From assembly GCA_002787355.1 (NCBI GenBank), contig PCWN01000003.1, positions 8,606-72,605 of the forward strand: a stretch of 64,000 bases of DNA, read 5' to 3'. Source of the stretch: Candidatus Magasanikbacteria bacterium CG11_big_fil_rev_8_21_14_0_20_39_34 (GTDB lineage Bacteria > Patescibacteriota > Patescibacteriia > Magasanikbacterales > UBA922). This document shows positions 423 to 40,437 of the stretch, one piece after another. Under the pieces are notes generated by a model that was not told the DNA's origin, did not search any database, and worked only from the letters and a program-made list of their open reading frames with translations. Numbering within the stretch: position 1 is the stretch's first letter; each line of letters begins with the position of its first letter. The position numbers and the translations under genes are program-made.

Positions 423-463
423 CTTATTGGTGTTGACCTATCATCTCCACGGAAAGAAAACCC

Positions 464-1018
464 ATGAAGTACCTAGACCCATTTTACCTTCTTCTTCGTT
501 TTGTCGTTCTGCGCCGCCTCTACAAAGCAAACCTCAGCCCTGCTCAGTTTGCTTTTCTGGAGGACAACACCGGCAAACAACGCCTTTCTCTCTGGGTTAC
601 CCTCATCGTGTCCGTCCCTCTTTACTTTGGTGTGGTTCAAAGTGAGGGAAACCAAGACCGACTCCTGATGGGGATGATTGGTTTCGTCGCTGTCACGGGA
701 TCCGGATGGTATGTCCTGAGCTTTGGAGGGATCCCAGCCAAGCTCCTGGACGCTGCCATGGAGATCACCTTCTACATGTGGACCAGTTTTGTGTGTGCCC
801 TCACAGCCACTCTGCTGGTACTGATCACCATGTTTCCGCCACTGTGCTGGCCTGCCCTTTTCATCATCTATCTGGGTGCCATTTTCTCCGGTATGCAGTA
901 TGACACCACGGACGGAATGAAAATTGGATTGGATGAAACTCTCCAAAGGCATTCCCGTGCAGCACTGCAATACTACAAACGAGAAGGTATCCACCCAGAC
1001 GAAGAACGAAACGAATAG
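464..1018 (+). CDS. hypothetical polytopic membrane protein (G+C-rich island 1)
   Basis: 184-aa ORF with several hydrophobic helices. G+C and GC3 are clearly higher than in the flanks. A C-rich tail (gtgccccacccacgcc) follows the stop. Confidence 0.55.
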   Translation: MKYLDPFYLLLRFVVLRRLYKANLSPAQFAFLEDNTGKQRLSLWVTLIVSVPLYFGVVQSEGNQDRLLMGMIGFVAVTGSGWYVLSFGGIPAKLLDAAMEITFYMWTSFVCALTATLLVLITMFPPLCWPALFIIYLGAIFSGMQYDTTDGMKIGLDETLQRHSRAALQYYKREGIHPDEERNE

Positions 1019-1052
1019 TCTTGTGCGTGCCCCACCCACGCCAAAAATTCCT

Positions 1053-1439
1053 CTATATAGGAATAATATACTTTACCAACTTTACAGAATCAGTATGGTT
1101 GGAAATATAAATACTTATCTGTTCAAATTGAATGGGTGTCCTATCAATATCAATTCCGTATTCTATACAATACTGTTTTGCGGAAAAAAATATATGCTCT
1201 AATTTTTTTTTACCAACAGCTCGCTCTGCACTTCCATTTTCTCCTCTTCGAGTCTTCACCTCTATAAAAGAAAGTGTTTTCTTTTTAAATATTCCTTCTT
1301 TTTTATAGGCAACAATATCTATCTCACCTTTTGAACATTTATAATTTCTTTCCTCTATTTTATATCCCTGCCGAATTAAAAAAAGAGCAGCCTGCTCCTC
1401 ACCCCACGAACCTAAGTGTTGTTTTTTTGTTTGTGTCAT
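1053..1439 (-). CDS. yraN: YraN/UPF0102 family endonuclease-like protein
   Basis: GEIDIVA and FIEVKTRR motifs with YraN-like length and architecture. Confidence 0.7.
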   Translation of the reverse strand: MTQTKKQHLGSWGEEQAALFLIRQGYKIEERNYKCSKGEIDIVAYKKEGIFKKKTLSFIEVKTRRGENGSAERAVGKKKLEHIFFSAKQYCIEYGIDIDRTPIQFEQISIYISNHTDSVKLVKYIIPI

Positions 1440-1456
1440 ACCCCCCCAAAAAAAAT

Positions 1457-1987
1457 CTACTGATTCCTATAGAGAACTATACCACTGTGATAGGGCCCAC
1501 AGATAAATTCTTCTTGAACTACAAACCCACGCATCTTTGCCCAATCCTTTATATCTTGGAAGTCGACAAACCGACCATCCTGTGGACCAAACCGCAGTCC
1601 TTTTTTTGACCAGTCTACAATGATCAGTCGTGCCTTGTCTTTTAACAACCGAGCACACTCCTCCAAAATAGCATGTCGATTATTGGACTGAACCAAAGTA
1701 TTTACCAAAAATCCAACATCCAAACTTTTGTTGGGAATATGCGAAGCCCCAATGCGTTCCAAATCTGCCCATACGGGTTGTACGTTGAAAAAACCATTAT
1801 CTTTTGCCCTTTTATCCACTTCATGAATAATATCTTTCATAATATCCACGGCATACACGATCCCTTTTTCTCCCACTATTCTTGCAGCGGGGAGTACCAC
1901 ATGCGCTGTTCGACCACAACCAAAATCTGCAATATGCATTCCCTGTTGCAGTTGTCCTTTTTCAAAAAGTAGATTGATATCTATCAT
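1457..1987 (-). CDS. class I SAM-dependent methyltransferase
   Basis: IADFGCGRTA (motif I) and a Rossmann-like pattern. The ORF extends to 2059, but that overlaps the neighbouring gene, so the start at MIDINLL (1987) is preferred. Confidence 0.6.
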   Translation of the reverse strand: MIDINLLFEKGQLQQGMHIADFGCGRTAHVVLPAARIVGEKGIVYAVDIMKDIIHEVDKRAKDNGFFNVQPVWADLERIGASHIPNKSLDVGFLVNTLVQSNNRHAILEECARLLKDKARLIIVDWSKKGLRFGPQDGRFVDFQDIKDWAKMRGFVVQEEFICGPYHSGIVLYRNQ

Positions 1988-2009
1988 ATGAAAATGTATG
2001 CTAACTCCC

Positions 2010-2243
2010 CTATGATATCCCAAACATGCTCCCAAATACACCCAAAATAATATCCCCAAGAGCCCCCGTCATCCCAAGGAAAGCAATAATGATTAAAATA
2101 ACGCCAATAAGCTTATAAAAATTGTAACTCCCCATGTGCATCTCTGCCCATTCGCTGGTTCCAAAATTTTGCACAAACCAATGTGTTTTCCAAACCATAA
2201 AAAAACCAACTAAAACCGCTAAGAATCCAAAAAAGTACCCCAT
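2010..2243 (-). CDS. small two-helix membrane protein, hypothetical
   Basis: 77 aa with two hydrophobic segments and no recognisable motif. Confidence 0.4.
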   Translation of the reverse strand: MGYFFGFLAVLVGFFMVWKTHWFVQNFGTSEWAEMHMGSYNFYKLIGVILIIIAFLGMTGALGDIILGVFGSMFGIS

Positions 2244-2285
2244 AAAATTTTATATATATTCAATACGGACATTATATCGTATTTT

Positions 2286-2912
2286 TTATTTTTGGGAAAG
2301 CAATGTAAATTCCAACCCCCAAACAACATGATCCGAAGATTGGCATTTGAAACATACATCTCGATACGGATGATCTTCAAACCGTGCTATAAAGTACGTT
2401 TCAATTTCAGGGATTTTTTGTTTTACCTCTTCTATATTTTCGGCCTTATCATCTATAAAATAAATGTGTTTATATTTTGATATAAGTGGAGATATAACAT
2501 TAACCTTCCTTTCGGTTGAAATAATATACTCATACCCCACTGGAAGATTACTGTGCTCAATTTTTTCTCTTTGAAGTTCCTTATCCCCGTGTGTTGCAAT
2601 GATAATATCAAATCTGTCCATGTGTCTTAAAAAAAATTCTCTCACATCTGGAAAAACACACTCTTTAGCGTGCTCTTTTATAACACTATGCACGGCATGA
2701 TGAAGTTTTTTTGAATCATAACCTAAGAAGGAGTCCACAAAATGGTCAATGTCTATGACATTATTAACCTTTTTAATAAGAGAACGATGCGCATCAAAAT
2801 CTTTTTCTGAGATATGAAAAACTCCACAGAATACTTCCTTTAGCTTTTGCACATATATGGTTGTATTAAAAAGAGTATGATCAAAGTCAATGATAATAAG
2901 ATTCTCTTTCAT
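2286..2912 (-). CDS. HAD-superfamily hydrolase
   Basis: N-terminal IIIDFDHTLF is the DxDxT HAD motif I. Downstream K and DD motifs are present. Confidence 0.65.
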   Translation of the reverse strand: MKENLIIIDFDHTLFNTTIYVQKLKEVFCGVFHISEKDFDAHRSLIKKVNNVIDIDHFVDSFLGYDSKKLHHAVHSVIKEHAKECVFPDVREFFLRHMDRFDIIIATHGDKELQREKIEHSNLPVGYEYIISTERKVNVISPLISKYKHIYFIDDKAENIEEVKQKIPEIETYFIARFEDHPYRDVCFKCQSSDHVVWGLEFTLLSQK

Positions 2913-2928
2913 ATATTCCTTTATTTTT

Positions 2929-3612
2929 TTATTCCTCGCAAAAGAATACGGACAAATTCTTATGCCCCAACAATTTTTTTGATGGAAATTGTAAAAATGG
3001 AATATCTCGATGCATGAAATCTTCCATTACCTGTTTTTTTTGTAGCCCAGATGCCAAAAGCAGCACATGTTTACTGTTCAAAATGGATTTCCATCCCAAG
3101 GTCATTCTGTCTTGAATGGGAGGATTTGGATCAAATGGATTATAGGCATAGAGCACCGAATCCGTTTCATTCTGCACCGCATCTTGCCCACACATCAATG
3201 ATGCTGTATGTCCATCCTCACCAATACCCAAAATACAAAGATCTAAACGTTCAATCGTATCAAATTGGTCTTTATATTCTTGAATACATCTCTCAATGGG
3301 AAGATGTGTATCAAAAAAATGAAAGGCACGTAACTTTCCCTCGAGAGGGGCAATCAATGTTTCTTGAATCATTTTTTGGTTTGAAAGTGGATCATCATGT
3401 GATACATATCTTTCATCAACCATCCAAAATTCCACTTTGGAAAAATCAATATTTTTCTCTTGAGCCAAAGCCTTATACAAAGATTTTGGAGTACTTCCAC
3501 CCGAAAGGGCAATATGTACAGCCTTTTCCGAAGAAATACAAATTTTTTTAATAAGCTGCAAAGAAGCTTGAATATAGGACTGCTGTTCTGAAAATATTTG
3601 ATAATTTGTCAT
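2929..3612 (-). CDS. pgl: 6-phosphogluconolactonase (NagB/Pgl family)
   Basis: GGSTP, WMVDERYV and ILGIGEDGHTASL motifs. Sits adjacent to zwf. Confidence 0.75.
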   Translation of the reverse strand: MTNYQIFSEQQSYIQASLQLIKKICISSEKAVHIALSGGSTPKSLYKALAQEKNIDFSKVEFWMVDERYVSHDDPLSNQKMIQETLIAPLEGKLRAFHFFDTHLPIERCIQEYKDQFDTIERLDLCILGIGEDGHTASLMCGQDAVQNETDSVLYAYNPFDPNPPIQDRMTLGWKSILNSKHVLLLASGLQKKQVMEDFMHRDIPFLQFPSKKLLGHKNLSVFFCEE

Positions 3613-3618
3613 AAATGC

Positions 3619-5034: not shown

Positions 5035-5061
5035 ATGGAAAGTTATTGAATGGATTGTGTT

Positions 5062-6483: not shown

Positions 6484-6500
6484 AAAGTATATAAAATATA

Positions 6501-6842: not shown

Positions 6843-6845
6843 ACA

Positions 6846-8141: not shown

Positions 8142-8153
8142 ATATTATTATAT

Positions 8154-8408: not shown

Positions 8409-8417
8409 ACAACTGCG

Positions 8418-9119: not shown

Positions 9120-9124
9120 AAATA

Positions 9125-19492: not shown

Positions 19493-19521
19493 TTGACAGG
19501 ACATTTTTTGCTGTGTATAGT
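19493..19521 (+). promoter_or_regulatory. sigma70-type promoter (TTGACA-17-TATAGT) for island-2 gene
   Basis: TTGACA at 19493-19498, a 17-nt spacer, TATAGT at 19516-19521. AGGGAG Shine-Dalgarno lies 8 nt before the ATG at 19554. Confidence 0.5.
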
Positions 19522-19553: not shown

Positions 19554-20006
19554 ATGCACGGGCTCATCCTTGTAGTGGTGCTCGTTCTTGGAGCACTCTT
19601 CATGGGGAAGTTCATCTCCCCCATCCTGCATCAAGTCGCCCTCACGAAAACCCTCCTGGCCCACCCGGGGAAGGTACACACCATTTCTCATCCGGGCTCA
19701 TGGAACCCTCGTAACTGGAAGATGCGCTACATTCGCATCCACCCAAATGAAGGACTTCCATTCTCCGGAAGGATCGGCTTCACCTTTCTGGGGAAGACCT
19801 GGTTCTTCGGGAAGTTCGAGGCAGAAGAGGGGGAGGATATCTACCTCCACACCTTCTTTGGACGTGGGAGCACGAGGTTCCTCGTCCACATCGAGATCCA
19901 AGGCGATCAAGAAATCATGATCGGCCTAACGGAGTCCATTGACACGTCCTTCCCTCGACGAGTCATTGAATTTCCCCCCACCATCTTCCAACGCATCGGA
20001 ATCTAG
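19554..20006 (+). CDS. hypothetical protein with N-terminal TM/signal (G+C-rich island 2)
   Basis: 151-aa ORF with very high GC3. The ORF-track start at 19527 is a TTG; the ATG at 19554 has a proper Shine-Dalgarno. Confidence 0.55.
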   Translation: MHGLILVVVLVLGALFMGKFISPILHQVALTKTLLAHPGKVHTISHPGSWNPRNWKMRYIRIHPNEGLPFSGRIGFTFLGKTWFFGKFEAEEGEDIYLHTFFGRGSTRFLVHIEIQGDQEIMIGLTESIDTSFPRRVIEFPPTIFQRIGI

Positions 20007-20046
20007 GTCGAGCCCCCCGACCTTCCACACCCCAACTTGACATCAA

Positions 20047-31452: not shown

Positions 31453-31659
31453 TCATACGTTTGAGAAGGGTTCTGATGCAATGCACCAGCACACGGTATA
31501 GACCTCCCCCGTTTGAGGATCAATTTCTTGCCAACATTGAAGCTGCATTTCTTCTTGTGCATGTGCACGAGACATGTACAAGCACAGCACAATGATCATG
31601 ACAAGAATCCACAGCAATGCGCGAAACCATACATGATCAAACCACCGCTTGTTTCCCAC
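31453..31659 (-). CDS. small hypothetical membrane protein (distal gene of island 3)
   Basis: 68 aa with one TM helix. A TTGACA-17-TACTGT element lies upstream on the minus strand. Weakly supported. Confidence 0.3.
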   Translation of the reverse strand: MGNKRWFDHVWFRALLWILVMIIVLCLYMSRAHAQEEMQLQCWQEIDPQTGEVYTVCWCIASEPFSNV

Positions 31660-31833
31660 TGCCCACTCCCCGTTTGAAAATGACTCTCCACAACAGTATC
31701 AAGCGTTCTTGTTGGTGTCAAATTTTTTTCAATAAAAAAAACACAACGCTATATTAAAAAAAAAATTTTCAATACAAGGTTGTGTTTTGCTCGGCCAGAT
31801 GTGGGCGAAATGACCGAGCAGTGGTGGGTTTTT

Positions 31834-34779
31834 TTAAGGAGGCGGGAGGTCCTCATCGTCGGCCTGGTCTACACCGGCGTCCGGAAGGATCATTTTGGGA
31901 ACGTTATCTAGCATTGGTGTGACCACTTCTCCATCCTGGATGAATGGTGGTCCGGGATCCACAGAAGTTGGTTCCACATAGGGTTCCGTTGGTTCGGTAC
32001 CCTCAAGGAAGCACTCCTTTGGTGGATCCGGCTCATCCGTCTCAAGCAACATTCCATGCTCGAAGTCGAATGGGACACACACCACGCCTTCTGGCGGTGG
32101 GCCAAAACCGTTCAGTTCTTCCGGTCTGTCTTCCGTAGAACCGAAGAAACCTGCATTCCACATACTCTCCAGCGCCGACTTTACAATCGGCAGAGCAGCA
32201 GATGCTCCGGTCTCTGCACGACGTGCCCGCCCCTTGAGCGGCGCAGCATTATCAAAGCCCACCCATGAGACCACGACAGCCTCAGGAAGAACTCCGATAA
32301 ACCACGTCGACTTGGACTGGTTCGTCGTACCGGTCTTGCCCGCTACCGGAAGCGGAAAGTTCTTGAGTCTTGCGCCCGATCCGTCTGTCACGACCGAGCG
32401 CATCATGTTGCGCAGTAGCCACATGACCGCCTCGCTGAACTCTCGCTTTCGCACTGATGGAAGAGTCGCCTCAATCTCGATTTCATCTCCACCTAGGCTC
32501 TCGATGTGATCGATGAGCCTCCACTTTGCGTGGATACCACCACTTGCAACGGTGGCATAGGCAGTTGCGAGCTCAAGAGGAGAAACTTCACTTCCACCAA
32601 GAGCGATAGAAGGTCCCTGTGCCAACGCAGAAGTAATCCCAACCCGCCGAAGCGTGTTGGTCACCATCTCATAGCCAATATCCTCATGGCAAATGAGCTG
32701 CGCCGCGATAGAGTTGACCGACCCGGCCAATCCTTCTCGCAAGGTCATGGGGCCTTCCCGGTATTTTCCGCCGTAGTTCCCTGGTGACCATTCCTTCTCA
32801 TCGAATCCCTTTCCGTCTGCCCAGGGTATCCTGTAGTGGCAGGTGTAGGGTTCGTCGATGAGACGCTGCGGTGCAACACGATCCGCCGTACCCCAAGGGG
32901 TGAAGACCTTCATGTCGAGGGCCGTCAGGTACACCCCAAGAGGCTTGAACGTGGAACCGGGTTGCAATGCGGACAGGCACCGGTTGTAACGGGAGAGCGA
33001 GTAGCTGTCGCCGCACACCAGTGCACGAATCTCGTGGGTCTGTGGATCCAGATGAACCATGGCCGCTTGAGGGCCCATTTCGGGGCGAACCCAAACGTGG
33101 TTCTTCTTTCCAGCAACAGGTTCAATGACCTGTGCCTGGATCACATCTCCAGGAGACCAGCGGAAACGCTCCTTCGCAGGTTCCGGCTCAGTCGGCTTTT
33201 CACCAGACTTTGCCTTTGCCTTCTTCTGGGCGCGCTCCCACTTCCGCAAATCCCTCTGCCACTGCTTCTGCGCCTTTTTGTAGGCGTTCCGGTCCTCTTC
33301 CGAGATCCGGTAGTAGCGCGAGAGATTCCGCAAACGAATTTGTCCGGTGAGACCACCCCCAAGATCCAGGTAGAGAAAACCATTTTCCGGGTCATCTTCC
33401 ACCTTTTGGACCTTGGCAAGTACCAGGCTTGCGGGCTTCACGACCTGACTCTGCGGGATAGACTTGTGGAGAGGATCGGCGAACCCCTGTCGCTCATCAA
33501 CTTCTGCAAGCTGGTGAACAATGGCGTCCCGAGCCTCCCTCTGACGCTCGCTATTTATGGTGAGGTAAACTCGGATTCCTCCACGACGGAGCGTATCCTT
33601 GTCCAGACTCTCTTCCAAAATAGAAAGCGCCATGTCCTTGGCCCAACCACCCTCGTCCCCCTCTTGGGGTTGATCGATCAGGTTGAACTCCTCAGACAAA
33701 GCCTCGTCTCGCTGAGCAGTCGTGATGAATCCCTCGTGGTGCATGCGGTTGAGCACATACGCACGACGGACTCGCGCCGCTTCGGGGTGACGATCTGGAC
33801 GCAGGCGTTCCGGGGACTGCACCATACCGGCAAGCATGGCACATTGCGCCAGCGTGAGCTCGCTGAGGTCCTTTCCCCAATAGAACTTGGAGGCCTCGAT
33901 GGGACCAACGCGGCCTCCACCTAGATATGCCCAGTTCCAGTACAGGATCATGATGTCCTGCTTGGAGAACTTGTCCTCGAGCTTCCACGCCAGCAGCCAC
34001 TGGGCCAGCTTGTAGCCCAGCTTGCCCTTCCCCTTCTCCAGGCCAGCGATGTTCTTGACCACCTGCATGGAGATGGTGGAACCGCCGGGCCCGCTGTGCC
34101 TGTGCTTGAGGACGTATACGGCCGCGCGGGCAATTCCCTTGAGGTCCACACCATTGTGTGCGGACACACCATCTCGCTCGAGGAAGTTTTCATCCTCGGA
34201 AGAAATGATGGCCTGCACCAGGTGAGCCGGAAGCTCCTCGTAGCTCACAACCGGCGTGTAATACGTCGGCCGCTGCCAGAGAAGCACCTTGTCATGGGAG
34301 TAAACCTCAAGCGTTCCCGGCTGCTCCACTTCTGAAGCCGCCTGAACATCGGGGAGATCCTGCACGAACTTCGCAGCCACGTGCTCCAGCACAGGGCGGA
34401 AGAACACAAGGACACACAGTGCCCCCATGGCCGCGGTGATAATCCCCGAAAGGAAGATCGCCGTGAAAGGGCGGCGGCGCAGCTTGAAACTAAGGAAGGC
34501 CAGGAACGTCGGCGGCAAGGCCAGTGGCCAGTACAGCCAAAAGCCCAGGCCCATAGCCCCAAGCCATATGAGGATCGCCGGCCAGACGATTCCCCACGTA
34601 AGAGCGCGGCTGAACAAGCCGCGCTCGTCCTTCGGGCGAGATGGTTTTTCTTTCTTTGGCCGGCGCTCCCGCACCGGCCTCGTCTTGTCCCGACCAGCCG
34701 GCCGGGACGAGGTGGTCTTCTTGCTAGGGGGCGTATCATCCCCCCCGAGCTCGAAATCCTCATCCATCCAACTGGCCAT
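31834..34779 (-). CDS. ponA: class A penicillin-binding protein (PBP1A; GT51 transglycosylase + transpeptidase), G+C-rich
   Basis: GT51 motifs (IISSEDENFLERDG, GGSTISMQVVKNI), transpeptidase motifs (STFKP, SVNS, KTGTT), an N-terminal basic cytoplasmic tail with a TM helix, and a Pro/Glu-rich C-terminal tail. By eye the G+C is far above that of the flanking genes. Confidence 0.9.
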   Translation of the reverse strand: MASWMDEDFELGGDDTPPSKKTTSSRPAGRDKTRPVRERRPKKEKPSRPKDERGLFSRALTWGIVWPAILIWLGAMGLGFWLYWPLALPPTFLAFLSFKLRRRPFTAIFLSGIITAAMGALCVLVFFRPVLEHVAAKFVQDLPDVQAASEVEQPGTLEVYSHDKVLLWQRPTYYTPVVSYEELPAHLVQAIISSEDENFLERDGVSAHNGVDLKGIARAAVYVLKHRHSGPGGSTISMQVVKNIAGLEKGKGKLGYKLAQWLLAWKLEDKFSKQDIMILYWNWAYLGGGRVGPIEASKFYWGKDLSELTLAQCAMLAGMVQSPERLRPDRHPEAARVRRAYVLNRMHHEGFITTAQRDEALSEEFNLIDQPQEGDEGGWAKDMALSILEESLDKDTLRRGGIRVYLTINSERQREARDAIVHQLAEVDERQGFADPLHKSIPQSQVVKPASLVLAKVQKVEDDPENGFLYLDLGGGLTGQIRLRNLSRYYRISEEDRNAYKKAQKQWQRDLRKWERAQKKAKAKSGEKPTEPEPAKERFRWSPGDVIQAQVIEPVAGKKNHVWVRPEMGPQAAMVHLDPQTHEIRALVCGDSYSLSRYNRCLSALQPGSTFKPLGVYLTALDMKVFTPWGTADRVAPQRLIDEPYTCHYRIPWADGKGFDEKEWSPGNYGGKYREGPMTLREGLAGSVNSIAAQLICHEDIGYEMVTNTLRRVGITSALAQGPSIALGGSEVSPLELATAYATVASGGIHAKWRLIDHIESLGGDEIEIEATLPSVRKREFSEAVMWLLRNMMRSVVTDGSGARLKNFPLPVAGKTGTTNQSKSTWFIGVLPEAVVVSWVGFDNAAPLKGRARRAETGASAALPIVKSALESMWNAGFFGSTEDRPEELNGFGPPPEGVVCVPFDFEHGMLLETDEPDPPKECFLEGTEPTEPYVEPTSVDPGPPFIQDGEVVTPMLDNVPKMILPDAGVDQADDEDLPPP

Positions 34780-34982
34780 CTGACACCTCCAAAAATTGGA
34801 TTCGTACGAGAAAGGAACGTTCTTCTCTCAAAGAAGTTTCCTTTCTCGTACGAAATTTGTAAAAGAACATTCTCTTTCATTCCTCCCGAATACTTTATCT
34901 CCATTCCATTGATGAAAATAAACTATTTAAAAAGAAGGTTTTTTCTGGACGTTGCGGTGGGAACAACGTCCATGTGGTGGGT

Positions 34983-35816
34983 TTATGGGATGATGCAGCT
35001 CCCAGTCAGCTCCTGTGAAATTCTCTCCACAGACTCGCTGTAGAAAGCATCGACCTTGGGGTAGTCCAATGCCAGGTCACGAACTCGATCTCCTTCTGGC
35101 AGGAGCACAGCGCAGAGTCGAAAGAGTTCGCTTGCATCCAATGAAAGCCCATCTTCAATGGGTTCCACAACATGCAAGCAGGTCCTCACCATGTTCGCCC
35201 CCTTGTAAAAGGCGGCCACGATGAGCTCCTCGCTCCATCCTTCTTCAGCCTCTTGCTCAAAACTGTCGGCAAGGGCATACATGACCCGCCAAGGATCGAG
35301 ACGTTCGTCCTCCACATCGTCGTCCACCGTAAGACCGTATCCCTTTGCTTCCGCAAACGAGAGGGTCAGGAGGCCCCTCCCACCGAGCATGGTCCTCACA
35401 TCGTTTTGCCCTCGAGTCTGAGCAAAGGTGAGGAAGAAGAGCGGGCGGACTACGTTGCTTTGATACCCTTCTTGGACATCCGTGAGCAGCGTGTGGAGGT
35501 ACGCCGCACGCTCGCAGTAAGTGAAGTTCTCGGAGAGCACGTGCTGTGCATCTCCCTCCGGAACTCCATCCGACCAGTTTACCCCCGTAGGATTGGGGGT
35601 GGGTGTGGAAACCTGCTGCGACGGATTTGTTTGTTGGAACTCCCCTGGGCTCCACAGAGACGGGAGCTTGGGGAGCAGATGCCTGGGGACAATCGCGTCC
35701 CCACCCTGGTCCTTCCTCACCGTTTCACCCTGCTGAATACCCGTAGGCATCCAGAGGGCAAAGAGAATCGAGGAAAAGAACAGGGAGAACAGGAACACAA
35801 TGCCAAGACGCTTCAT
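34983..35816 (-). CDS. hypothetical secreted protein co-transcribed with PBP1A (G+C-rich)
   Basis: N-terminal signal/TM (MKRLGIVFLFSLFFSSILFALW), G+C-rich, no recognisable motif. First gene after the 35936-35964 promoter. Confidence 0.5.
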   Translation of the reverse strand: MKRLGIVFLFSLFFSSILFALWMPTGIQQGETVRKDQGGDAIVPRHLLPKLPSLWSPGEFQQTNPSQQVSTPTPNPTGVNWSDGVPEGDAQHVLSENFTYCERAAYLHTLLTDVQEGYQSNVVRPLFFLTFAQTRGQNDVRTMLGGRGLLTLSFAEAKGYGLTVDDDVEDERLDPWRVMYALADSFEQEAEEGWSEELIVAAFYKGANMVRTCLHVVEPIEDGLSLDASELFRLCAVLLPEGDRVRDLALDYPKVDAFYSESVERISQELTGSCIIP

Positions 35817-35935
35817 TTTGAAACCCTTGCAAAAAGAATCCAACAGAGATAAGTCCTCAAAAAAAGCACTCCCCTCTCCTAAATTCTTTATTTTTCTTCT
35901 TATTTTAGCAAAAAAATTTTCTTTTCGAACGGGCC

Positions 35936-35964
35936 ATTATAGCATAAATAAACCATTTTGTCAA
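35936..35964 (-). promoter_or_regulatory. perfect sigma70 consensus promoter (TTGACA-17-TATAAT) driving the island-3 operon
   Basis: Minus-strand TTGACA (35959-35964), a 17-nt spacer, TATAAT (35936-35941). Confidence 0.55.
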
Positions 35965-36956: not shown

Positions 36957-37379
36957 ATGGCAAAGAAATTAACAACACAAATTAAACTTCAGATTGTAGG
37001 AGGAGCTGCAAACCCAGCACCACCAGTTGGACCAGCACTTGGTCAACATGGTCTCAATATTCAAGATTTTTGTACACAGTTCAACAACGCAACTGCAGAC
37101 AAAAAAGGTGATGTTGTACCAGTAGTTATCAATGTATACGATGACCGAACCTTTGATTTTATCATGAAGGTTGCACCTGCTTCTGAATTGATTAAGAAAG
37201 CAGCTGGACTCAAAAGTGGAAGTGGAAACCCTCTCAAAGAAAAAGTAGGAAAAATCACAAAAGCACAACTCCAAGAAATTGCGGAAAAGAAAATGCCTGA
37301 CCTCAATGCCAATGACATTGAAGCTGCTATGAAGATTATTGCAGGTACCGCAAGACAAATGGGAGTTACCGTTGAATAA
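36957..37379 (+). CDS. rplK: 50S ribosomal protein L11
   Basis: [28 protein letters not shown], 140 aa. Confidence 0.95.
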
Positions 37380-37399
37380 GATACATCAGTAATTAAAAA

Positions 37400-37424
37400 A
37401 ACAGCCTTTTGGCTGTTTTTTTGT
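37400..37424 (+). terminator. rho-independent terminator after rplK
   Basis: Stem AACAGCC/GGCTGTT with loop TTTT, followed by TTTTTGTG. Confidence 0.55.
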
Positions 37425-37451
37425 GCAGTATTTTTGATATTCTGGTATAAT
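37421..37451 (+). promoter_or_regulatory. extended -10 promoter (TGGTATAAT) for the 2-hydroxyacid dehydrogenase gene
   Basis: TGnTATAAT at 37443-37451. The -35 is weak (TTGTGC, 19-nt spacing). Confidence 0.4.
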
Positions 37452-37475
37452 AGAATGACTATCTTTATATAACCT

Positions 37476-38489
37476 ATGAAACCCAAAAAGTATCAGTGCC
37501 AATTTTTTCTCTCTTTAACCCCGGATCTTCGTAAATATATCCGCTCCAAACTTAAAGGACACAGAGTAAGTATCTCTGAGGAAATTCTTTCACTGGACAA
37601 ACTCCATCCTGATACAGAGGTTTTAGGAACATTTGTTGACTCAAAAATAGATAAAAAAGTCTTTGAGAAACTCAAGAAACTCAAGCTCATCATCACCCTT
37701 TCTACCGGTTTTGACCATATAGATTTGCAAACGGCAAAGAAAAAAAAGGTTACGGTTTGCAATGTTCCAACCTATGGGGAAAACACCGTCGCAGAATATG
37801 CTATTGGCATGATGCTTGCACTCTCCAGAAAATTTTTTCAAAGTGTAAAACGTGTAAAACAAGAAGGCATCTATGATTATCACGGTCTGCGTGGTTTTGA
37901 CTTAGCAGGGAAAACCATAGGTGTCATTGGAACCGGAAATATTGGTCAGCATGTGGTAAAGATGCTTCATGGTTTTGATGTAAAAATTATTGCATACGAT
38001 GTTTTTAAAAACCAAAATCTTATTGATAATTATGGTGTAGAATATATGCCGCTCAATAAGTTATTTTCTTTAAGTGATATCATTACACTCCATGTGCCAC
38101 TTTTGGATTCTACACGTTATATGATAAACAAAAAGTCCATAAAAAAAATGAAAAAAGGAGTCTATATTATTAATACGGCACGCGGTGGACTGATTGATTC
38201 TGAAGCACTTCTCTATGGACTCCAACAAGGTATGGTGGCCGGAGCTGGACTTGATGTATTGGATGACGAAGATCTTCTTGAAGACACACTCAAAATTCTG
38301 TGTGCAGAATGTAATCCTCAAAACACACGCAAAAGTCTCATGAACAGTCTCCTGATTGACCATCCCAATACCATTGTTACTCCACATAATGCATTTAATT
38401 CAAATGAAGCAGTGAAAAGAATTATTGATACGAGTGTCGATAACGTCCGACAGTTTGCTTTGGGAAAAGTGCAAAATAAGGTAAACTAA
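37476..38489 (+). CDS. D-isomer-specific 2-hydroxyacid dehydrogenase (NAD-dependent)
   Basis: GKTIGVIGTGNIGQHV NAD-binding motif, ARGGLID, a catalytic His region, 337 aa. Confidence 0.85.
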   Translation: MKPKKYQCQFFLSLTPDLRKYIRSKLKGHRVSISEEILSLDKLHPDTEVLGTFVDSKIDKKVFEKLKKLKLIITLSTGFDHIDLQTAKKKKVTVCNVPTYGENTVAEYAIGMMLALSRKFFQSVKRVKQEGIYDYHGLRGFDLAGKTIGVIGTGNIGQHVVKMLHGFDVKIIAYDVFKNQNLIDNYGVEYMPLNKLFSLSDIITLHVPLLDSTRYMINKKSIKKMKKGVYIINTARGGLIDSEALLYGLQQGMVAGAGLDVLDDEDLLEDTLKILCAECNPQNTRKSLMNSLLIDHPNTIVTPHNAFNSNEAVKRIIDTSVDNVRQFALGKVQNKVN

Positions 38490-38495
38490 TATAAT

Positions 38496-39407
38496 ATGAA
38501 AAGAATTTTTCGTTCATCTTGGTTTCTTGTTCTCCCACTTTTTTTTGGTGGTATGCTTCTCATCTCTGGTTGTGGAAATCAAACTGAAACTCAGCCTTCC
38601 CCTCAAAAGGTATCCAAGCAAACCGTTATCAAACAACCAGACCAAGAACAAACTCCCCTCCAAAAAGCGCTGGAGTATTGTTCAGACCAAGGATATGATA
38701 TTTCTTTTGTGGTAGATGAAAAAAATCAAGAGACACATGCTTTCTGCATTTTTGATGACAACAAAGCCTGTGAAGTGTTGGCCTATCAAGAAGGCATCTG
38801 TACACAAGATAATGGCTCCGGATGGCTTTCCGAGGATGATACCCTTGATGGACAACGAGCTTATAGATATTGTGATACCACCACAAAACCCGTTTGTGGC
38901 GAAGACGGAAAAACCTATGTCAGTGAATGTATTGCCCAAGCAGAAGGAATACATGTAAAACAAGAAGGACCTTGTCCATCTGACGAAAATGGGGCCGTTG
39001 TCTATCTTGATCCCATATATAAGCGCACTCCCACAAAAAAAATCTCTTCTGGAAACACAGGATCAAGTGGAAAAATCTCTCCATCCTCCCCCGCTCCGGC
39101 AACGGCAAATACGGAATCTTCAAAAATTGAAATCACAGATACTCCACAAAAACTGGATGATTGGTTTCAGGTACTGGTAAGTGTTTCGGAATATGAACGA
39201 AAAACTGATAACACACTCTTCATTGAAGAATGTGTTTATAACAAAAAATATTACTACTACAAAGCAAGTTCCCAAAATGGTTTTTCTGTACTCTATAATG
39301 ACAAAGGGACGGCTCTCTGCTTCCCCAACAATAATGTCAACAATTCCTGTCCAAGTTTTTTTGATGTCCTCGACCGAGCAAATATTTGTAAAAAACTTTG
39401 GCCATAA
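38496..39407 (+). CDS. lipoprotein with DUF333-like and Kazal-like Cys-rich domains
   Basis: Lipobox LISGC. A Cys pattern resembling DUF333 (CSDQGYD...AFCIFDDNKACEVLAYQEGIC). A Kazal-like C-x6-CGEDGKTYVSEC-x15-C segment. Confidence 0.55.
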   Translation: MKRIFRSSWFLVLPLFFGGMLLISGCGNQTETQPSPQKVSKQTVIKQPDQEQTPLQKALEYCSDQGYDISFVVDEKNQETHAFCIFDDNKACEVLAYQEGICTQDNGSGWLSEDDTLDGQRAYRYCDTTTKPVCGEDGKTYVSECIAQAEGIHVKQEGPCPSDENGAVVYLDPIYKRTPTKKISSGNTGSSGKISPSSPAPATANTESSKIEITDTPQKLDDWFQVLVSVSEYERKTDNTLFIEECVYNKKYYYYKASSQNGFSVLYNDKGTALCFPNNNVNNSCPSFFDVLDRANICKKLWP

Positions 39408-39408
39408 T

Positions 39409-39768
39409 ATGTTTTTTTCTCCTATCACGAAAAAAAATAGCCTTGAAGTTGAAGCGAGCATTGATTTAGACGTTGATGCAGACTTTGATGAAGTTTCTTT
39501 GCAAGTTCTCAAAGATTCAAGTACGCCTCAAAAATTTCTTGCTATTTATCAGGAATCTCACCGTGGCACATTGGGAACGGAAACCGTATATCATCGAGGA
39601 AGAGATTTTAACATAGATCAGATTTTAAAAATTTTGGACGCTATAAAAAATTCCAATATACCTATACTCAAAAAATTTTATCAAGAAAACAAAAATCTTT
39701 TTTTTGATGCAAGAAGTTTTAAAATTTTACTAGAAGTGGCTCCCTTAGAAGCTGATTTTCTCCTCTAG
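39409..39768 (+). CDS. hypothetical protein
   Basis: 119 aa from the Met at 39409. The ORF-track start at 39181 would overlap the lipoprotein gene. Confidence 0.35.
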   Translation: MFFSPITKKNSLEVEASIDLDVDADFDEVSLQVLKDSSTPQKFLAIYQESHRGTLGTETVYHRGRDFNIDQILKILDAIKNSNIPILKKFYQENKNLFFDARSFKILLEVAPLEADFLL

Positions 39769-39780
39769 AAACTCTAAAAA

Positions 39781-39812
39781 GAGAGATAGATCCCTATCTC
39801 TCTTTTTATTTG
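39781..39812 (+). terminator. rho-independent terminator
   Basis: Perfect 10-bp stem AGAGAGATAG/CTATCTCTCT with loop ATCCC, followed by TTTTTATTTG. Confidence 0.55.
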
Positions 39813-39847
39813 TAAAAATATTCCTTTATAAAAAACATAGACAGATA

Positions 39848-39876
39848 TTGACAAAAAGGCAAAATTGAGCTATATT
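39848..39876 (+). promoter_or_regulatory. sigma70-type promoter (TTGACA-17-TATATT) for island-4 gene
   Basis: Hexamers with a 17-nt spacer. AGGAAAGG Shine-Dalgarno lies 8 nt before the ATG at 39944. Confidence 0.5.
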
Positions 39877-39943
39877 CTCAGGTCAACTTTCGTGAAATTC
39901 TTTACGAAGATGACCTTTTTTGGTTTGTAGGAAAGGCAGAACC

Positions 39944-40354
39944 ATGCGCCGCACCCTGACCATCCTGATCACCGTGACCATCCTCATGACCACCATCTTC
40001 AACCGGGGGGGGTTCTGTGCCCCCGCGGTCTACCGCCCCAAAACGGGCCGTCTCTCGCCCGGAGAGTGGGGCAAGGGGATCTTCGTCGGGGGCCTGGCCC
40101 TCGGCGGATACGCCGTCTACCAGATGGGCAAAGACAACGGGATCAAGGCGGCACCGGAGGTGTTCGCCGTGGGTCTCGTGGCCGTCGTGCTGGGAGGCGT
40201 TCTCGCCTTCGCCGACCCGGAGACGCCCGTGGACCGCTTCCCCAACAACCCTCCAAAAAAGAAGGCCAAACCGGTCTACCACCTCTCACTTTCCCCCGCC
40301 ATGCTCCCAAACGGACATTTGGGAGCAGAAGCCTGTCTTGGCTTCACTTGGTAG
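39944..40354 (+). CDS. hypothetical small membrane/secreted Gly-rich protein (G+C-rich island 4)
   Basis: 136 aa with a signal-like N-terminus (MRRTLTILITVTILMTTIF), a Gly-zipper helix (GIFVGGLALGGYAVY ... AVGLVAVVLGGVLAF) and extreme GC3. Confidence 0.5.
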   Translation: MRRTLTILITVTILMTTIFNRGGFCAPAVYRPKTGRLSPGEWGKGIFVGGLALGGYAVYQMGKDNGIKAAPEVFAVGLVAVVLGGVLAFADPETPVDRFPNNPPKKKAKPVYHLSLSPAMLPNGHLGAEACLGFTW

Positions 40355-40437
40355 GTCCTGCCCCACCCAGGACCAATCCCCCACACTCCCTATCTTAAAA
40401 GAAGGTAATGAGTACCAAGGGATTTTCTGTCTTACCC

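What the first reader, a model, noticed from the sequence alone, without database searches (positions are those of the whole stretch)
430..40400. Four sharply bounded G+C-rich islands in an AT-rich genome, each fused to a native-style consensus promoter and followed by a C-rich tail
The four islands are about 464-1050, 19554-20040, 31440-35850 and 39944-40400. Their G+C and especially third-codon-position G+C are far above the rest of the window, with transitions that coincide almost exactly with CDS boundaries. Upstream of each is an AT-rich TTGACA-17-TATAAT-like promoter plus a Shine-Dalgarno of the same style as the native genes. Downstream of each CDS is a 30-40-nt C-rich, G-poor stretch with a recurring CCCCACC-like motif: gtgccccacccacgcc, gagccccccgaccttccacaccccaac and ctgccccacccaggacc...cccccacactccc. 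Natural HGT normally brings donor flanks and ameliorates gradually. Here the pattern looks like donor CDSs placed precisely behind host promoters. That points to a cassette-capture mechanism, very recent acquisition from a high-G+C donor (for example an actinobacterial host of an episymbiont), or a chimeric or engineered assembly. The C-rich tails would also fit Rho-utilisation sites.
Basis: partly seen in the sequence, partly recalled or inferred. Interest (0 to 1): 0.82.

Follow-up and report, generated by a model that had tools for sequence, protein, structure and literature searches.

The report
Conserved G+C-rich gene islets in CPR bacterium
A small AT-rich candidate-phyla-radiation bacterium carries a handful of inserted genes (a cell-wall synthase operon and several small orphan proteins) whose coding sequences have stayed strikingly G+C-rich at the same chromosomal positions in at least four diverged relatives. 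Each is followed by the same odd C-rich hairpin, so this is not fresh foreign DNA or an assembly error but a long-maintained second "dialect" of genes whose cause is unknown.

Summary
Native genes have GC3 of 0.30 +/- 0.04 (n=51). The island genes reach 0.58-0.82, which is 6.6-12 SD above that. Each has a near-consensus sigma-70 promoter and a C-rich tail.

The tail has a defined form: a CCCACC box just after the stop codon, then a hairpin with a roughly 7-nt YCCCACC loop and no U-tract. It follows 5 of 5 island genes and 0 of 51 native genes.

The junctions are identical in independent assemblies, so this is not a chimera. Three diverged relatives keep G+C-rich genes at the same positions (class A PBP 46-52% identical; a closer relative's 281-aa ortholog 52%). 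Their fourfold sites are near saturation and the PBP tree matches the core genes, so the acquisition is not recent.

Island 3 is nevertheless an insertion, because gyrB and secE are adjacent in more distant relatives. The enrichment is confined to coding sequence: spacers inside and beside the islands stay AT-rich while diverging fast.

Best reading: old inserted genes whose coding G+C is actively maintained, tagged by a shared 3'UTR element. The maintaining force is unresolved. Candidates are selection on mRNA or codon composition, biased gene conversion, or re-import.

The parts
394..422 (+). Promoter of island 1 (TTGACA-17-TATTAT)
   Evidence: 11 of 12 consensus matches, among the best in 200-20150. 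The surrounding spacer 256-463 is 20% G+C.
464..1018 (+). Island 1 CDS: 184-aa multi-pass membrane protein with no family
   Evidence: G+C 0.51, GC3 0.58 (z 6.6). Coding periodicity is present (GC2 0.38). No Pfam family above its curated cut-off (one sub-threshold CitMHS match, E 0.006) and no NCBIfam match. The exact protein is found on 16 contigs from JGI, ENA and Logan.
1025..1041 (+). Island 1 3' element: hairpin GCGUG-CCCCACC-CACGC
   Evidence: Begins 7 nt after the UAG stop. -7.8 kcal/mol, z -3.2. No U-tract.
19493..19521 (+). Promoter of island 2 (TTGACA-17-TATAGT)
   Evidence: 11 of 12 consensus matches.
19554..20006 (+). Island 2 CDS: 150-aa orphan with an N-terminal membrane helix
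   Evidence: GC3 0.70 (z 9.5). The only match among 5.8 billion proteins is itself, an NCBI hypothetical protein COV59_00940 of Candidatus Magasanikbacteria bacterium CG11.
20005..20036 (+). Island 2 3' element: hairpin with loop AGCCCCC (20005-20023) and C-rich tail CCUUCCACACCCCAAC
   Evidence: -7.9 kcal/mol, z -2.3. It abuts the rpmE promoter at 20037.
35936..35964 (-). Promoter of the island 3 operon (TTGACA-17-TATAAT with TG extension)
   Evidence: 12 of 12 consensus matches. It lies back to back with the secE promoter at 36037.
34983..35816 (-). Island 3 gene 1: 277-aa secreted protein, possibly a degenerate SLT-like lytic transglycosylase
   Evidence: GC3 0.65. It has a 52% identical ortholog, P0123, at the same position in L172 with GC3 0.62 against 0.30-0.36 in the flanks. 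The gene at this position in L003 has an SLT domain. Similarity to that gene is not significant, and the AF2 model is poor.
34946..34981 (-). 3' element of the 277-aa gene: CCCACC box (34976-34981) and a 10-bp hairpin with loop UCCCACC (34946-34972)
   Evidence: -14.5 kcal/mol, z -4.9. The orthologous hairpin in L172 has three compensatory pair changes.
34801..34854 (-). Long hairpin in the PBP leader, within the AT-rich spacer inside island 3
   Evidence: 24-nt arms, 92% complementary. Leader fold z -4.3. A hairpin of different sequence sits at the same place in L172 (z -4.7); a long hairpin also folds in the L003 leader, but that fold is not significant (z -1.6). The spacer 34780-34982 is 38% G+C.
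31834..34779 (-). Island 3 gene 2: 981-aa class A penicillin-binding protein
   Evidence: Pfam Transgly 1.2e-47 and Transpeptidase 5.4e-26. GC3 0.66. Orthologs are P0002 (L003, 52%, GC3 0.76) and P0003 (L004, 46%, GC3 0.64), both next to gyrB.
31788..31828 (-). PBP 3' element: CCCACC box (31823-31828) and a 10-bp hairpin with a 13-nt loop containing CGCCCAC (31788-31820)
   Evidence: -15.8 kcal/mol, z -4.9. The L003 and L004 orthologs have 8-bp stems with three compensatory changes and an identical UCCCACC loop.
31738..31788 (-). Canonical AT-rich intrinsic terminator directly after the PBP C-loop hairpin
   Evidence: Long hairpin followed by U8. A near-copy lies at 31371-31411.
31453..31659 (-). 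Island 3 gene 3 (tentative): 68-aa Cys-rich secreted peptide of intermediate composition
   Evidence: G+C 0.46, GC3 0.49 (z 4.6). It is followed by a hairpin plus U-tract at 31431-31449. There is a small gene at this position in L004 (157 aa, GC3 0.50).
39848..39876 (+). Promoter of island 4 (TTGACA-17-TATATT)
   Evidence: 11 of 12 consensus matches. The spacer 39769-39943 is 31% G+C.
39944..40354 (+). Island 4 CDS: 136-aa protein with a signal peptide, hydrophobic segments and a Pro/Lys-rich tail
   Evidence: G+C 0.64, GC3 0.82 (z 12.2). No homolog among 1.84 billion representatives. A 137-aa gene of similar layout (by eye) sits at the same position in L003 with GC3 0.79, but the pairwise E-value is only 0.009.
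40354..40392 (+). Island 4 3' element: 7-bp hairpin with loop CCCCACC (40354-40374) and C-rich tail AAUCCCCCACACUCCC
   Evidence: -11.6 kcal/mol, z -4.0, 95% of the ensemble. 22 C and 4 G in the first 40 nt after the stop.

Best explanation
The islands are real, long-resident, protein-coding insertions in the chromosome of a Magasanikbacteria/Nomurabacteria-like CPR bacterium. They comprise a cell-wall operon (an SLT-like protein, a class A PBP and a small secreted peptide) and several small orphan membrane or secreted proteins.

Each is its own transcription unit with three parts: a host-type sigma-70 promoter in AT-rich DNA, a G+C-rich coding sequence, and a distinctive 3'UTR element. That element is a stop-proximal CCCACC box followed by a hairpin that displays YCCCACC in its loop.

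At least island 3 entered the gyrB-secE spacer in the common ancestor of a small clade, and its PBP has been inherited vertically since.

The G+C richness is not a fading trace of that import. It is confined to codons and has persisted through roughly saturating synonymous divergence, so a gene-specific force keeps it up. I infer, but have not shown, that this force is selection on the nucleic-acid composition of the translated region. That selection would favour non-host codons and more structured mRNA, and would give these genes a separate translational or mRNA-stability regime. I also infer that the shared C-box and C-loop hairpin is a binding site for a common trans-acting factor, which would make the islets a small post-transcriptional regulon.

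Shown: reality of the islands, conservation, the insertion, confinement to coding sequence, and the 3' motif. Inferred: the nature of the maintaining force and the function of the hairpin.

The confidence given (0.5) is a blend. It is about 0.85 for the descriptive part (real, old, conserved, coding-only, shared 3' element). It is about 0.35 for the proposed force and the regulon reading.
For: **Reality of the sequence**
- The window is 100% identical to contigs from two other JGI samples and one Logan run.
- The island-1 protein is on 16 contigs.

**Conservation**
- L003 (NCBI GCA_020632445.1) has the same gene order. Genes at the island positions have GC3 0.76-0.90 against a native median near 0.40 (range 0.32-0.48).
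- L004: PBP GC3 0.64 against 0.29-0.35 in the flanking core genes.
- L172: 281-aa ortholog GC3 0.62 against 0.30-0.36.

**Vertical descent**
- PBP identity is 52% (window vs L003), 46% (window vs L004) and 61% (L003 vs L004). This parallels FtsW (57/59/82), DUF3048 (48/46/65) and the 297-aa protein (43/42/59).

**Time elapsed**
- Identity at fourfold sites between the window and L003 is 0.30-0.53, against 0.25-0.33 expected at saturation. The PBP is at 0.39 against 0.27.
- Even the window and L172 have d4 of 0.7-1.4 in native genes other than secE (0.22 on only 26 sites).
- Protein distances put the window-L003 split about three times deeper than the window-L172 split. A simple neutral decay model then predicts PBP GC3 of 0.39 or less. 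The observed value is 0.66.

**Host adaptation**
- TGA is used for only 3 of 15 island-gene stops and 4 of 51 native stops.

**Confinement to coding sequence**
- Spacers inside and beside the islands are 0.20-0.39 G+C.
- The spacer between the 277-aa gene and the PBP is only about 50% identical between the window and L172, yet it is AT-rich in both.
- An AT-rich family member, P0004 in L005, has GC3 0.33 and a normal U-tract terminator.

**Insertion**
- gyrB and secE are adjacent in at least 8 more distant relatives.

**3' element**
- define it. It lies upstream of canonical terminators.
- Stems covary while the loop is conserved.

**Rarity**
- 65 gyrB loci from other bacteria have almost no GC3-outlier genes.

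**mRNA structure**
- Island coding sequences fold 2-5.6 kcal per 120 nt below block-wise synonymous shuffles. Native genes range from 0.8 above to 2.1 below.
Against: - There is no translational-accuracy signal. GC3 is the same at conserved and variable PBP residues (0.63 vs 0.65, 0.72 vs 0.75, 0.61 vs 0.65). Codon selection of the classical kind is therefore not supported.
- Ribosomal-protein, nusG and chaperonin genes (typically highly expressed; no expression data here) use AT-ending codons. The island codons would therefore be non-optimal, and a benefit has to be postulated.
- The excess mRNA structure is only modestly above that of some native genes (L003 gyrB z -4.3).
- Amino-acid composition is also shifted toward G, A, R and P. 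Biased gene conversion or a foreign origin would predict this as well.
- The small island genes have no detectable sequence homologs in the sister genomes. Vertical descent is demonstrated only for the PBP and the 277/281-aa gene.
- Gene content at the island loci differs between lineages (a 259-aa TPR gene in L003, a 157-aa gene in L004). This fits ongoing import.
- No trans-acting factor has been identified. 5'UTR-to-3'-tail pairing is no better for a gene's own tail than for other islands' tails.
- The neutral-decay calculation is rough.
Confidence: 0.5

Rival explanations
1. Recurrent import from a G+C-rich gene pool. The pool could be an unseen mobile element or G+C-rich members of the same CPR class. 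It keeps delivering or replacing units made of a coding sequence plus a 3' hairpin at a few permissive intergenic sites. The C-box and C-loop hairpin would be the hallmark of that pool or its recombination site, making the units cassette-like.
For: - Each unit is a coding sequence plus a 3' hairpin inserted between conserved core genes. Island 3 is demonstrably an insertion.
- Gene content at the same loci differs between lineages: a 259-aa TPR gene with GC3 0.90 in L003 where the window has an AT-rich 119-aa gene, 396-aa against 277-aa upstream of the PBP, and 157-aa against 68-aa downstream.
- Most island genes are orphans.
- GC3 ranges from 0.49 to 0.95 across the island genes, as if they were of different ages.
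- The nearest outgroups include genomes of 53-61% G+C.
Against: - The PBP, and the 277/281-aa gene in the one pair available (window-L172), follow the species tree and its relative depths.
- No closer G+C-rich donor copy exists among 5.8 billion proteins.
- No viral relatives were found.
- No integrase, transposase, attC-like boxes or flanking direct repeats lie in or near the islands.
- G+C-rich relatives such as L087 and L088 use U-tract terminators and many TGA stops, unlike the islands.
- Hairpin stems differ and covary. They are not repeated copies of one sequence.
Confidence: 0.2
2. Localised GC-biased gene conversion. The island genes would be long-standing recombination hot spots, for example fast-evolving surface genes exchanged within populations. 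Biased repair of heteroduplexes would drive third positions, and some amino acids, toward G/C.
For: - GC3 is raised uniformly, whatever the residue conservation.
- Amino-acid composition shifts toward G, A, R and P.
- Protein evolution is accelerated: the 277-aa protein is 54% identical against 86-99% for its neighbours.
- GC3 declines mildly from 5' to 3' in all three PBPs.
- Strains of this organism do recombine, as shown by clustered SNP tracts.
- Biased gene conversion has been proposed for bacteria (PMC4450053).
Against: - The boundaries coincide with coding-sequence ends.
- The fast-diverging spacer inside island 3 stays at 38% G+C in the window and is equally AT-rich by eye in L172.
- 5'UTRs are AT-rich.
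- A GC3 shift of 0.3-0.65 is far larger than the effects reported for bacteria (my knowledge of PMC4450053).
- No hot-spot signal has been identified. The orientation of the CCCACC motif does not fit a Chi-like model given the observed 5'-high gradient (inference).
Confidence: 0.15
3. Passive, incomplete amelioration. A single ancient import from a donor with GC3 near 0.95 is still decaying, and no force maintains it.
For: - Island 3 is an insertion.
- The closest PBPs outside this small PBP group (P0002-P0004; the taxonomy of the AT-rich P0004 contig was not established) are from G+C-rich Gammaproteobacteria and Myxococcota, at about 31-33% identity.
- GC3 values are intermediate.
- Using only the saturated Jukes-Cantor distances (d4 1.0-1.3), the decay model gives 0.51-0.57. 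That is not far below the observed 0.64-0.76.
Against: - Calibrated on the closer pair, the window-L003 distance is about 2-4 substitutions per fourfold site, which predicts GC3 of 0.39 or less.
- Faster-evolving genes should ameliorate first, yet the fastest-evolving small genes are the most G+C-rich (0.79-0.95).
- The logit shift of PBP GC3 over the native level is nearly constant in three lineages with different baselines (1.6, 1.6, 1.3).
- Stop-codon usage has already adapted to the host.
- The related PBP in L005 is fully AT-rich.
Confidence: 0.1
4. One reading: very recent transfer from a high-G+C donor such as a host, or a chimeric or engineered assembly.
For: Sharp boundaries and consensus promoters look artificial at first sight.
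Against: - Identical junctions appear in independent assemblies from several samples and pipelines.
- G+C-rich orthologs sit at the same positions in three diverged genomes.
- Synonymous sites are saturated.
- Stop-codon usage is host-like.
- No near-identical donor sequence exists anywhere.
Confidence: 0.02

Closest known systems
Horizontally acquired genomic islets and 'morons' (compositionally atypical, self-contained transcription units)
   Same: - Atypical G+C and codon usage.
- Each has its own promoter and 3' end.
- They are inserted between conserved core genes.
- Most are orphans or accessory envelope functions.
   Different: - They are conserved in position and composition across genomes whose synonymous sites are saturated.
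- There are no mobility genes, tRNA targets or flanking repeats.
- The atypical composition has not ameliorated.
- All share one 3'UTR motif.
Integron gene cassettes (CDS followed by a structured attC site)
   Same: The unit is a coding sequence followed by a hairpin whose stem sequence varies between units. Many of the coding sequences are orphans.
   Different: - The hairpins are 16-33 nt with a conserved loop. attC sites are 57-141 nt with conserved R/L boxes at the base.
- The units are dispersed singly, each with its own promoter, and are not in an array next to intI.
- No integrase was seen.
C-rich 3'UTR and sRNA motifs of Firmicutes: icaR 3'UTR UCCCCUG (PMC3868564) and the UCCC loops of RNAIII and Rsa RNAs (my knowledge)
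   Same: A C-rich motif is displayed single-stranded or in a hairpin loop in the 3'UTR of an mRNA, upstream of the terminator.
   Different: No preferential complementarity to the gene's own Shine-Dalgarno region was found. The motif is CCCACC rather than UCCC. The association with a recoded coding sequence is unprecedented.
Rho-utilisation sites, such as lambda tR1 with rutA-boxB hairpin-rutB (my knowledge)
   Same: C-rich, G-poor segments flank a hairpin immediately after a coding sequence. There is no U-tract on that hairpin.
   Different: - The tails are only about 35-50 nt.
- The hairpin loop itself carries the conserved motif.
- Canonical intrinsic terminators follow in at least three cases.
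- Whether the organism has rho is unknown.
Codon-biased regulons: the bldA/TTA genes of Streptomyces and tRNA-modification-tunable transcripts (my knowledge)
   Same: A minority of genes uses codons that are rare for the genome, which could tie their translation to a special tRNA or physiological state.
   Different: Here the whole codon table is shifted (AAG 82% against 21%, ATC 65% against 17%), together with the amino-acid composition. No regulatory tRNA has been identified.
gBGC-driven G+C islands, such as mouse Fxy (my knowledge) and bacterial recombination-GC3 correlations (PMC4450053)
   Same: High GC3, a shift toward G, A, R and P, and accelerated protein evolution in specific genes.
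   Different: The enrichment stops at coding-sequence ends and spares fast-evolving internal spacers. Its magnitude is far beyond reported bacterial effects.

Membership tests
Recently acquired genomic island (HGT) | Atypical base composition and codon usage relative to the host | tested here: met
   GC3 of 0.58-0.82 against 0.30 +/- 0.04. The codon table is shifted.
Recently acquired genomic island (HGT) | Absent from close relatives, with patchy distribution | tested here: not met
   G+C-rich orthologs or positional counterparts are present in L172, L003 and L004. They are absent only from much more distant relatives.
Recently acquired genomic island (HGT) | Mobility hallmarks: integrase or transposase, tRNA target, flanking direct repeats | tested here: not met
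   The gene tables and Pfam results for the neighbourhoods show none. There is no tRNA next to an island. Only AT-rich terminator-like repeats were found.
Integron gene cassette | attC site of 57-141 nt with R''/L''-L'/R' boxes (RYYYAAC...GTTRRRY) | tested here: not met
   The hairpins are 16-33 nt, with conservation in the loop (YCCCACC) and not at the stem base.
Integron gene cassette | Promoterless cassettes arrayed next to intI and attI | tested here: not met
   The units are dispersed, each has its own consensus promoter, and no integrase lies in the roughly 84 kb examined.
Class A penicillin-binding protein (PBP1A type) | N-terminal membrane anchor, GT51 transglycosylase domain and transpeptidase domain | tested here: met
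   PF00912 at 1.2e-47 and PF00905 at 5.4e-26. Hydrophobic segments precede the GT domain.
Intrinsic (Rho-independent) terminator | G+C-rich hairpin immediately followed by a U-tract | tested here: not met
   No C-loop hairpin has a U-tract. Native genes do have one. Separate canonical terminators lie downstream.
Rho-dependent terminator (rut site) | C-rich, G-poor RNA downstream of the stop codon | tested here: met
   15-22 C against 4-7 G in the first 40 nt.
Rho-dependent terminator (rut site) | About 60-80 nt of unstructured RNA, and a rho gene in the genome | tested here: inconclusive
   The C-rich stretch is 35-50 nt and half of it is a stable hairpin.
icaR-type 3'UTR anti-SD element | The 3'UTR C-rich motif is complementary to the Shine-Dalgarno region of the same mRNA | tested here: not met
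   Duplex energy for a gene's own 5'UTR and tail (-14.8) equals that for other islands' tails (-14.6).
Structured non-coding RNA in a G+C-rich intergenic region | No coding periodicity, and a match to an RNA family | tested here: not met
   GC3 far exceeds GC2 in every island ORF. Rfam gives 0 matches at gathering thresholds.
Assembly chimera or engineered construct | Junctions not reproducible, and absent from natural relatives | tested here: not met
   Independent contigs are 100% identical, and the islands are conserved at the same positions in relatives. Read-level coverage could not be tested.

The most novel reading that the evidence does not exclude
A small CPR clade maintains, by selection, a second 'dialect' of genes. 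Their entire coding sequences are recoded to G/C-ending, non-host codons that give more structured mRNAs. They are tagged by a dedicated 3'UTR signal: a CCCACC box plus a hairpin presenting YCCCACC. An unknown factor, such as a dimeric RNA-binding protein or Rho, would read that signal.

This would form a post-transcriptional regulon for cell-wall and surface or host-interaction genes. Their expression would be gated by tRNA supply, ribonuclease or toxin resistance, or transcription-translation coupling. It would be a bacterial example of composition itself serving as a regulatory code, stable over long evolutionary time.
Probability: 0.25. Interest if true: 0.85.

Novelty: new variant of a known kind. 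Interest (0 to 1): 0.62.

Why it matters
Atypical G+C content is the standard marker for recent horizontal transfer, and it is assumed to fade (amelioration).

Here sharply bounded, coding-only G+C enrichment persists in the same genes through saturating synonymous divergence, in genomes whose baseline ranges from 37 to 44% G+C. Either something actively maintains a foreign composition gene by gene, or there is a hidden, continuing source of such genes. Either would matter in three ways:
- It would caution against composition-based dating of gene transfer in CPR bacteria.
- It would provide a natural system for separating selection on mRNA or codon composition from biased gene conversion in bacteria.
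- It would define a new 3'UTR motif with a testable partner.

The genes include the organism's class A peptidoglycan synthase and candidate surface proteins, which are relevant to how these ultra-small episymbionts build and remodel their envelope.

Tried and rejected
- **Known resistance, reporter or engineered cassettes.** Rejected once the ORFs were translated: they are a PBP and orphan membrane proteins.
- **Non-coding RNA in G+C-rich intergenic DNA.** Rejected by coding periodicity and the absence of Rfam matches.
- **Phage origin.** Two scans of viral contigs found nothing.
- **Specific k-mer avoidance, as for a toxin or nuclease recognition site.** Only generic depletion of TAA, TTA and GGAGG was seen against synonymous shuffles.
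- **Translational-accuracy (Akashi-type) test.** No difference in GC3 between conserved and variable residues.
- **icaR-like pairing of the 3' tail with the gene's own 5'UTR.** No specificity.
- **Chi-like hot-spot reading of CCCACC/GGTGGG.** The orientation is inconsistent with the 5'-high GC3 gradient (inference).
- **Fold of the 277-aa protein.** Single-sequence AF2 gave pLDDT 39 and was unusable. hhalign to the L003 SLT protein lines up the expected motifs (AQT/AES, GLLTL/GLWQL, AFYKG/AWNIG) but is not significant. The PDB profile search was empty.
- **SNP analysis between two strains (L166, L168).** All 198 differences fall in recombination tracts away from island 1, so it was uninformative.
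- **Metagenome scan with GyrB.** These served as controls and outgroups, not as new clade members.
- **Readthrough or recoding at the UAG-rich stops.** Considered, but there is no supporting evidence.
- **Literature.** Searches found no prior description.

Full report
**1. The observation**

The window is 39.4% G+C. A 100-nt scan finds only four extended stretches at or above 50%: 476-1050, 19526-20075, 31776-35800 and 39901-40425.

Translated in the correct frames, the islands hold these genes:
- 464-1018(+): 184-aa multi-pass membrane protein.
- 19554-20006(+): 150-aa protein with an N-terminal membrane helix.
- 34983-35816(-): 277-aa secreted protein.
- 31834-34779(-): 981-aa class A penicillin-binding protein (Transgly 1e-47, Transpeptidase 5e-26).
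- 39944-40354(+): 136-aa membrane protein.

Their GC3 is 0.58, 0.70, 0.65, 0.66 and 0.82. The 51 native genes have 0.297 +/- 0.043 with a maximum of 0.42, so the islands lie 6.6-12.2 SD above the mean. GC3 far exceeds GC2 in every case, so they are coding sequences and not G+C-rich RNA genes. Rfam finds nothing.

Codon choice is inverted relative to native genes: AAG 82% against 21%, ATC 65% against 17%, TTC 70% against 16%.

**2. The C-rich tail is a defined element**

All 13 island-gene 3' ends that I folded (in the window, L169, L003, L004 and L172) fold into a single hairpin. The loop is C-rich and 6-13 nt long, mostly 7 nt: CCCCACC, UCCCACC, AGCCCCC, UCCCCC. The z-scores run from -2.1 to -5.8. 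A single-stranded CCCACC(AC) box usually lies between the stop codon and the hairpin.

Stems differ in every copy. Orthologous hairpins show compensatory changes. Three of eight pairs differ between the L003 and L004 PBP hairpins while the loop stays identical. Three of eight pairs also differ between the window and L172 (read).

In the window, CCCAC or CCCCC occurs within 30 nt of the stop in 5 of 5 island genes and 0 of 51 native genes. Native operon ends carry ordinary hairpin-plus-U-tract terminators.

The C-loop hairpin has no U-tract. After the window PBP and after both L004 island genes, a canonical terminator follows 0-45 nt further on. The element therefore sits in the 3'UTR and is not itself the intrinsic terminator.

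**3. Not an artefact**

The window is 100% identical to contigs assembled from other JGI samples and a Logan run. The island-1 protein occurs on 16 contigs from JGI, ENA and Logan. NCBI holds the island-2 protein as a hypothetical protein of Candidatus Magasanikbacteria bacterium CG11.

**4. Not recent**

The PBP has only a few close relatives among 5.8 billion proteins. Their contexts are decisive.

L003 (NCBI GCA_020632445.1, labelled Nomurabacteria) has the same gene order: dUTPase, L1, [137 aa], [259 aa], Kazal, 2-Hacid_dh, L11, NusG, SecE, [396-aa SLT protein], [PBP], GyrB, FtsW, L25. Exactly the bracketed genes are G+C-rich there, with GC3 0.76-0.90 against a native median near 0.40 (range 0.32-0.48).

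L004 shows the same for the PBP (0.64 against 0.29-0.35 in the flanking core genes). The closer relative L172 shows it for the 281-aa ortholog of the 277-aa gene (0.62 against 0.30-0.36) and for the PBP N-terminus.

PBP identities are 52% (window vs L003), 46% (window vs L004) and 61% (L003 vs L004). These give the same topology and similar relative depths as FtsW, L25, DUF3048 and the 297-aa protein.

Fourfold-degenerate sites are close to saturation between the window and L003: identity 0.30-0.53 against 0.25-0.33 expected at random, and for the PBP 0.39 against 0.27. Even the window and L172 differ by d4 of 0.7-1.4 in native genes other than secE (0.22, n=26 sites).

Protein distances put the window-L003 split about three times deeper than the window-L172 split. 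A simple two-rate decay model from a starting GC3 of 0.95 then predicts 0.39 or less today. The PBP has 0.66, 0.76 and 0.64 in the three lineages. This calculation is rough.

The logit shift of PBP GC3 over each genome's native level is nearly constant: 1.6, 1.6 and 1.3.

Island genes also share the host's avoidance of TGA stops (3 of 15, against 4 of 51 native). This is unlike G+C-rich relatives such as L087.

**5. But foreign in origin**

In at least eight more distant relatives, gyrB is followed directly by secE-nusG with a gap of 43-387 nt. The 4.7-kb island 3 is therefore an insertion that arose in the ancestor of this small clade.

The next PBP relatives after the clade and one AT-rich homolog are from G+C-rich Gammaproteobacteria and Myxococcota, at about 31-33% identity.

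That AT-rich homolog is P0004 in L005, 39% identical. It has native-like GC3 of 0.33 and a normal U-tract terminator. It shows what an ameliorated or native member of the family looks like.

The phenomenon is not general. Sixty-five gyrB neighbourhoods from other bacteria contain almost no GC3-outlier genes.

**6. What maintains it?**

The enrichment is confined to coding sequence. The 203-nt spacer between the 277-aa gene and the PBP is 38% G+C in the window and equally AT-rich by eye in L172. It is only about 50% identical between the two genomes. Leaders and promoter regions are also AT-rich.

This argues against a regional process such as biased gene conversion or a local mutation bias. 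It also argues against a transcription-coupled process.

Classical selection for translational accuracy is not supported either. GC3 is the same at conserved and variable PBP residues, and there is only a mild 5'-to-3' decline in all three orthologs.

Island coding sequences fold 2-5.6 kcal per 120 nt more stably than block-wise synonymous shuffles. Native genes range from 0.8 kcal less stable to 2.1 more stable. This is suggestive of selection on mRNA structure but not decisive.

No single short motif is avoided.

Island proteins evolve fast. The 277-aa protein is 54% identical between the window and L172, while NusG, L11 and 2-Hacid_dh are 99, 96 and 86% identical. The smallest island genes have no detectable homologs at all.

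Gene content at the island loci also differs among lineages. Some continuing gain of G+C-rich genes from an unknown pool is therefore likely, alongside vertical inheritance of the PBP.

**7. Mechanistic proposal and its limits**

I rank the explanations as follows:
1. Selection on the nucleic-acid composition of the translated region, with the shared C-box and C-loop hairpin acting as a common post-transcriptional tag.
2. Recurrent import from a G+C-rich pool whose hallmark is the 3' element.
3. Localised biased gene conversion.
4. Passive slow decay.

The two copies of CCCACC, one single-stranded and one in a loop, recall bipartite sites for dimeric RNA-binding proteins. The C-rich, G-poor segments around a hairpin recall the rutA-boxB-rutB arrangement of lambda tR1 (my knowledge). 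Neither reading could be tested.

Pairing of the tail with the gene's own Shine-Dalgarno region, as in icaR (PMC3868564), is not supported.

**8. Verdict**

A foreign origin is supported for island 3.

What remains is unusual: insertions whose non-host coding composition and private 3'UTR motif are conserved over long divergence. I found no description of this in the searchable literature.

The mechanism is open, so I score it as a new variant of a known kind (compositional islets), with moderate-to-high interest.

Noticed in passing
L169 11577-13640 (same contig, about 1.0-3.1 kb beyond the window's 3' end): A fifth G+C-rich island. It holds a 400-aa orphan (11647-12849, GC3 0.87), a 76-aa Cys-rich peptide (13003-13233, GC3 0.95) and a 91-aa ORF (13340-13615, GC3 0.53). 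Each is followed by a stop-proximal CCCACC box, with or without a C-loop hairpin. The JGI gene calls there are antisense artefacts (a 360-aa ORF on the wrong strand).
   Followed up: partly
window 34801-34854 (minus-strand mRNA); L172 about 4896-4948; L003 9906-9954: A long hairpin (17-24 bp) in the PBP leader, about 25 nt upstream of the Shine-Dalgarno sequence. Its position is kept in the relatives although the sequence differs (z -4.3 and -4.7 in the window and L172; only -1.6 in L003). It may be a leader regulatory or processing structure.
   Followed up: partly
window 43196-59212 (+): A cluster of five very large AT-rich genes of 921, 584, 785, 1276 and 1749 aa. They have no Pfam match except a WipA-like phosphatase domain in the 1276-aa protein. 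They are not rpoB/rpoC despite their position after the L11/L1 region, and may be effector-like giant proteins.
   Followed up: partly
window 48269-48366 (-): ARAGORN calls a 98-nt tRNA-Glu(ttc) inside the 785-aa coding sequence. This is probably a false positive.
   Followed up: no
window 31834-34904; L001 9369-12415: The public gene call splits the PBP into an 804-aa protein and an out-of-frame 211-aa ORF. The 981-aa reading frame from ATG 34779, which has a GGAGGUG Shine-Dalgarno sequence, is supported by alignment to the L172 N-terminus. The G+C-rich islands generate many spurious overlapping ORFs in all six frames.
   Followed up: yes
window 31371-31411 and 31738-31788: Two similar AT-rich palindromes (ACAAAACA...TGTTTTGT, 83% alike over 29 nt) bracket the small 68-aa ORF unit. 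Both look like bidirectional intrinsic terminators. They may be a duplicated terminator left by stepwise insertion.
   Followed up: partly
window 1-255 (-) = L166 9035-9793; L169 14272-15027: TrmB-family transcription regulators lie next to island 1 (divergently transcribed) and close to island 5. They are paralogs, 23% identical with E 8e-13. They could be local regulators or the association could be coincidence.
   Followed up: partly
L166 vs L168, positions 500-3000 and 8500-9000 (upstream of the window start): Two strains are identical except for 198 differences clustered over the exosortase/GroEL region and the NusA region. This indicates recombination tracts within the population.
   Followed up: partly
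whole window: TGA is a rare stop codon (4 of 51 native genes, against TAA 36 and TAG 11). The nearest outgroup lineages by GyrB and NusG range from 35 to 61% G+C (L092 53%, L087 61%), so genomic G+C has shifted widely within this CPR group.
   Followed up: partly
window 36957-40604: The usually contiguous L11-L1 gene pair is interrupted by about 3.2 kb. The interruption holds AT-rich 2-hydroxyacid dehydrogenase, Kazal-domain and 119-aa genes, followed by G+C-rich island 4. In L003 a G+C-rich 259-aa TPR/membrane gene replaces the 119-aa gene, so this locus accumulates accessory genes of both compositions.
   Followed up: partly
window 19527-20432: The island-2 reading frame continues in frame through its UAG stop into the rpmE (L31) upstream region and coding sequence. 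This has a one-in-three chance of occurring by coincidence, and there is no evidence for readthrough.
   Followed up: no
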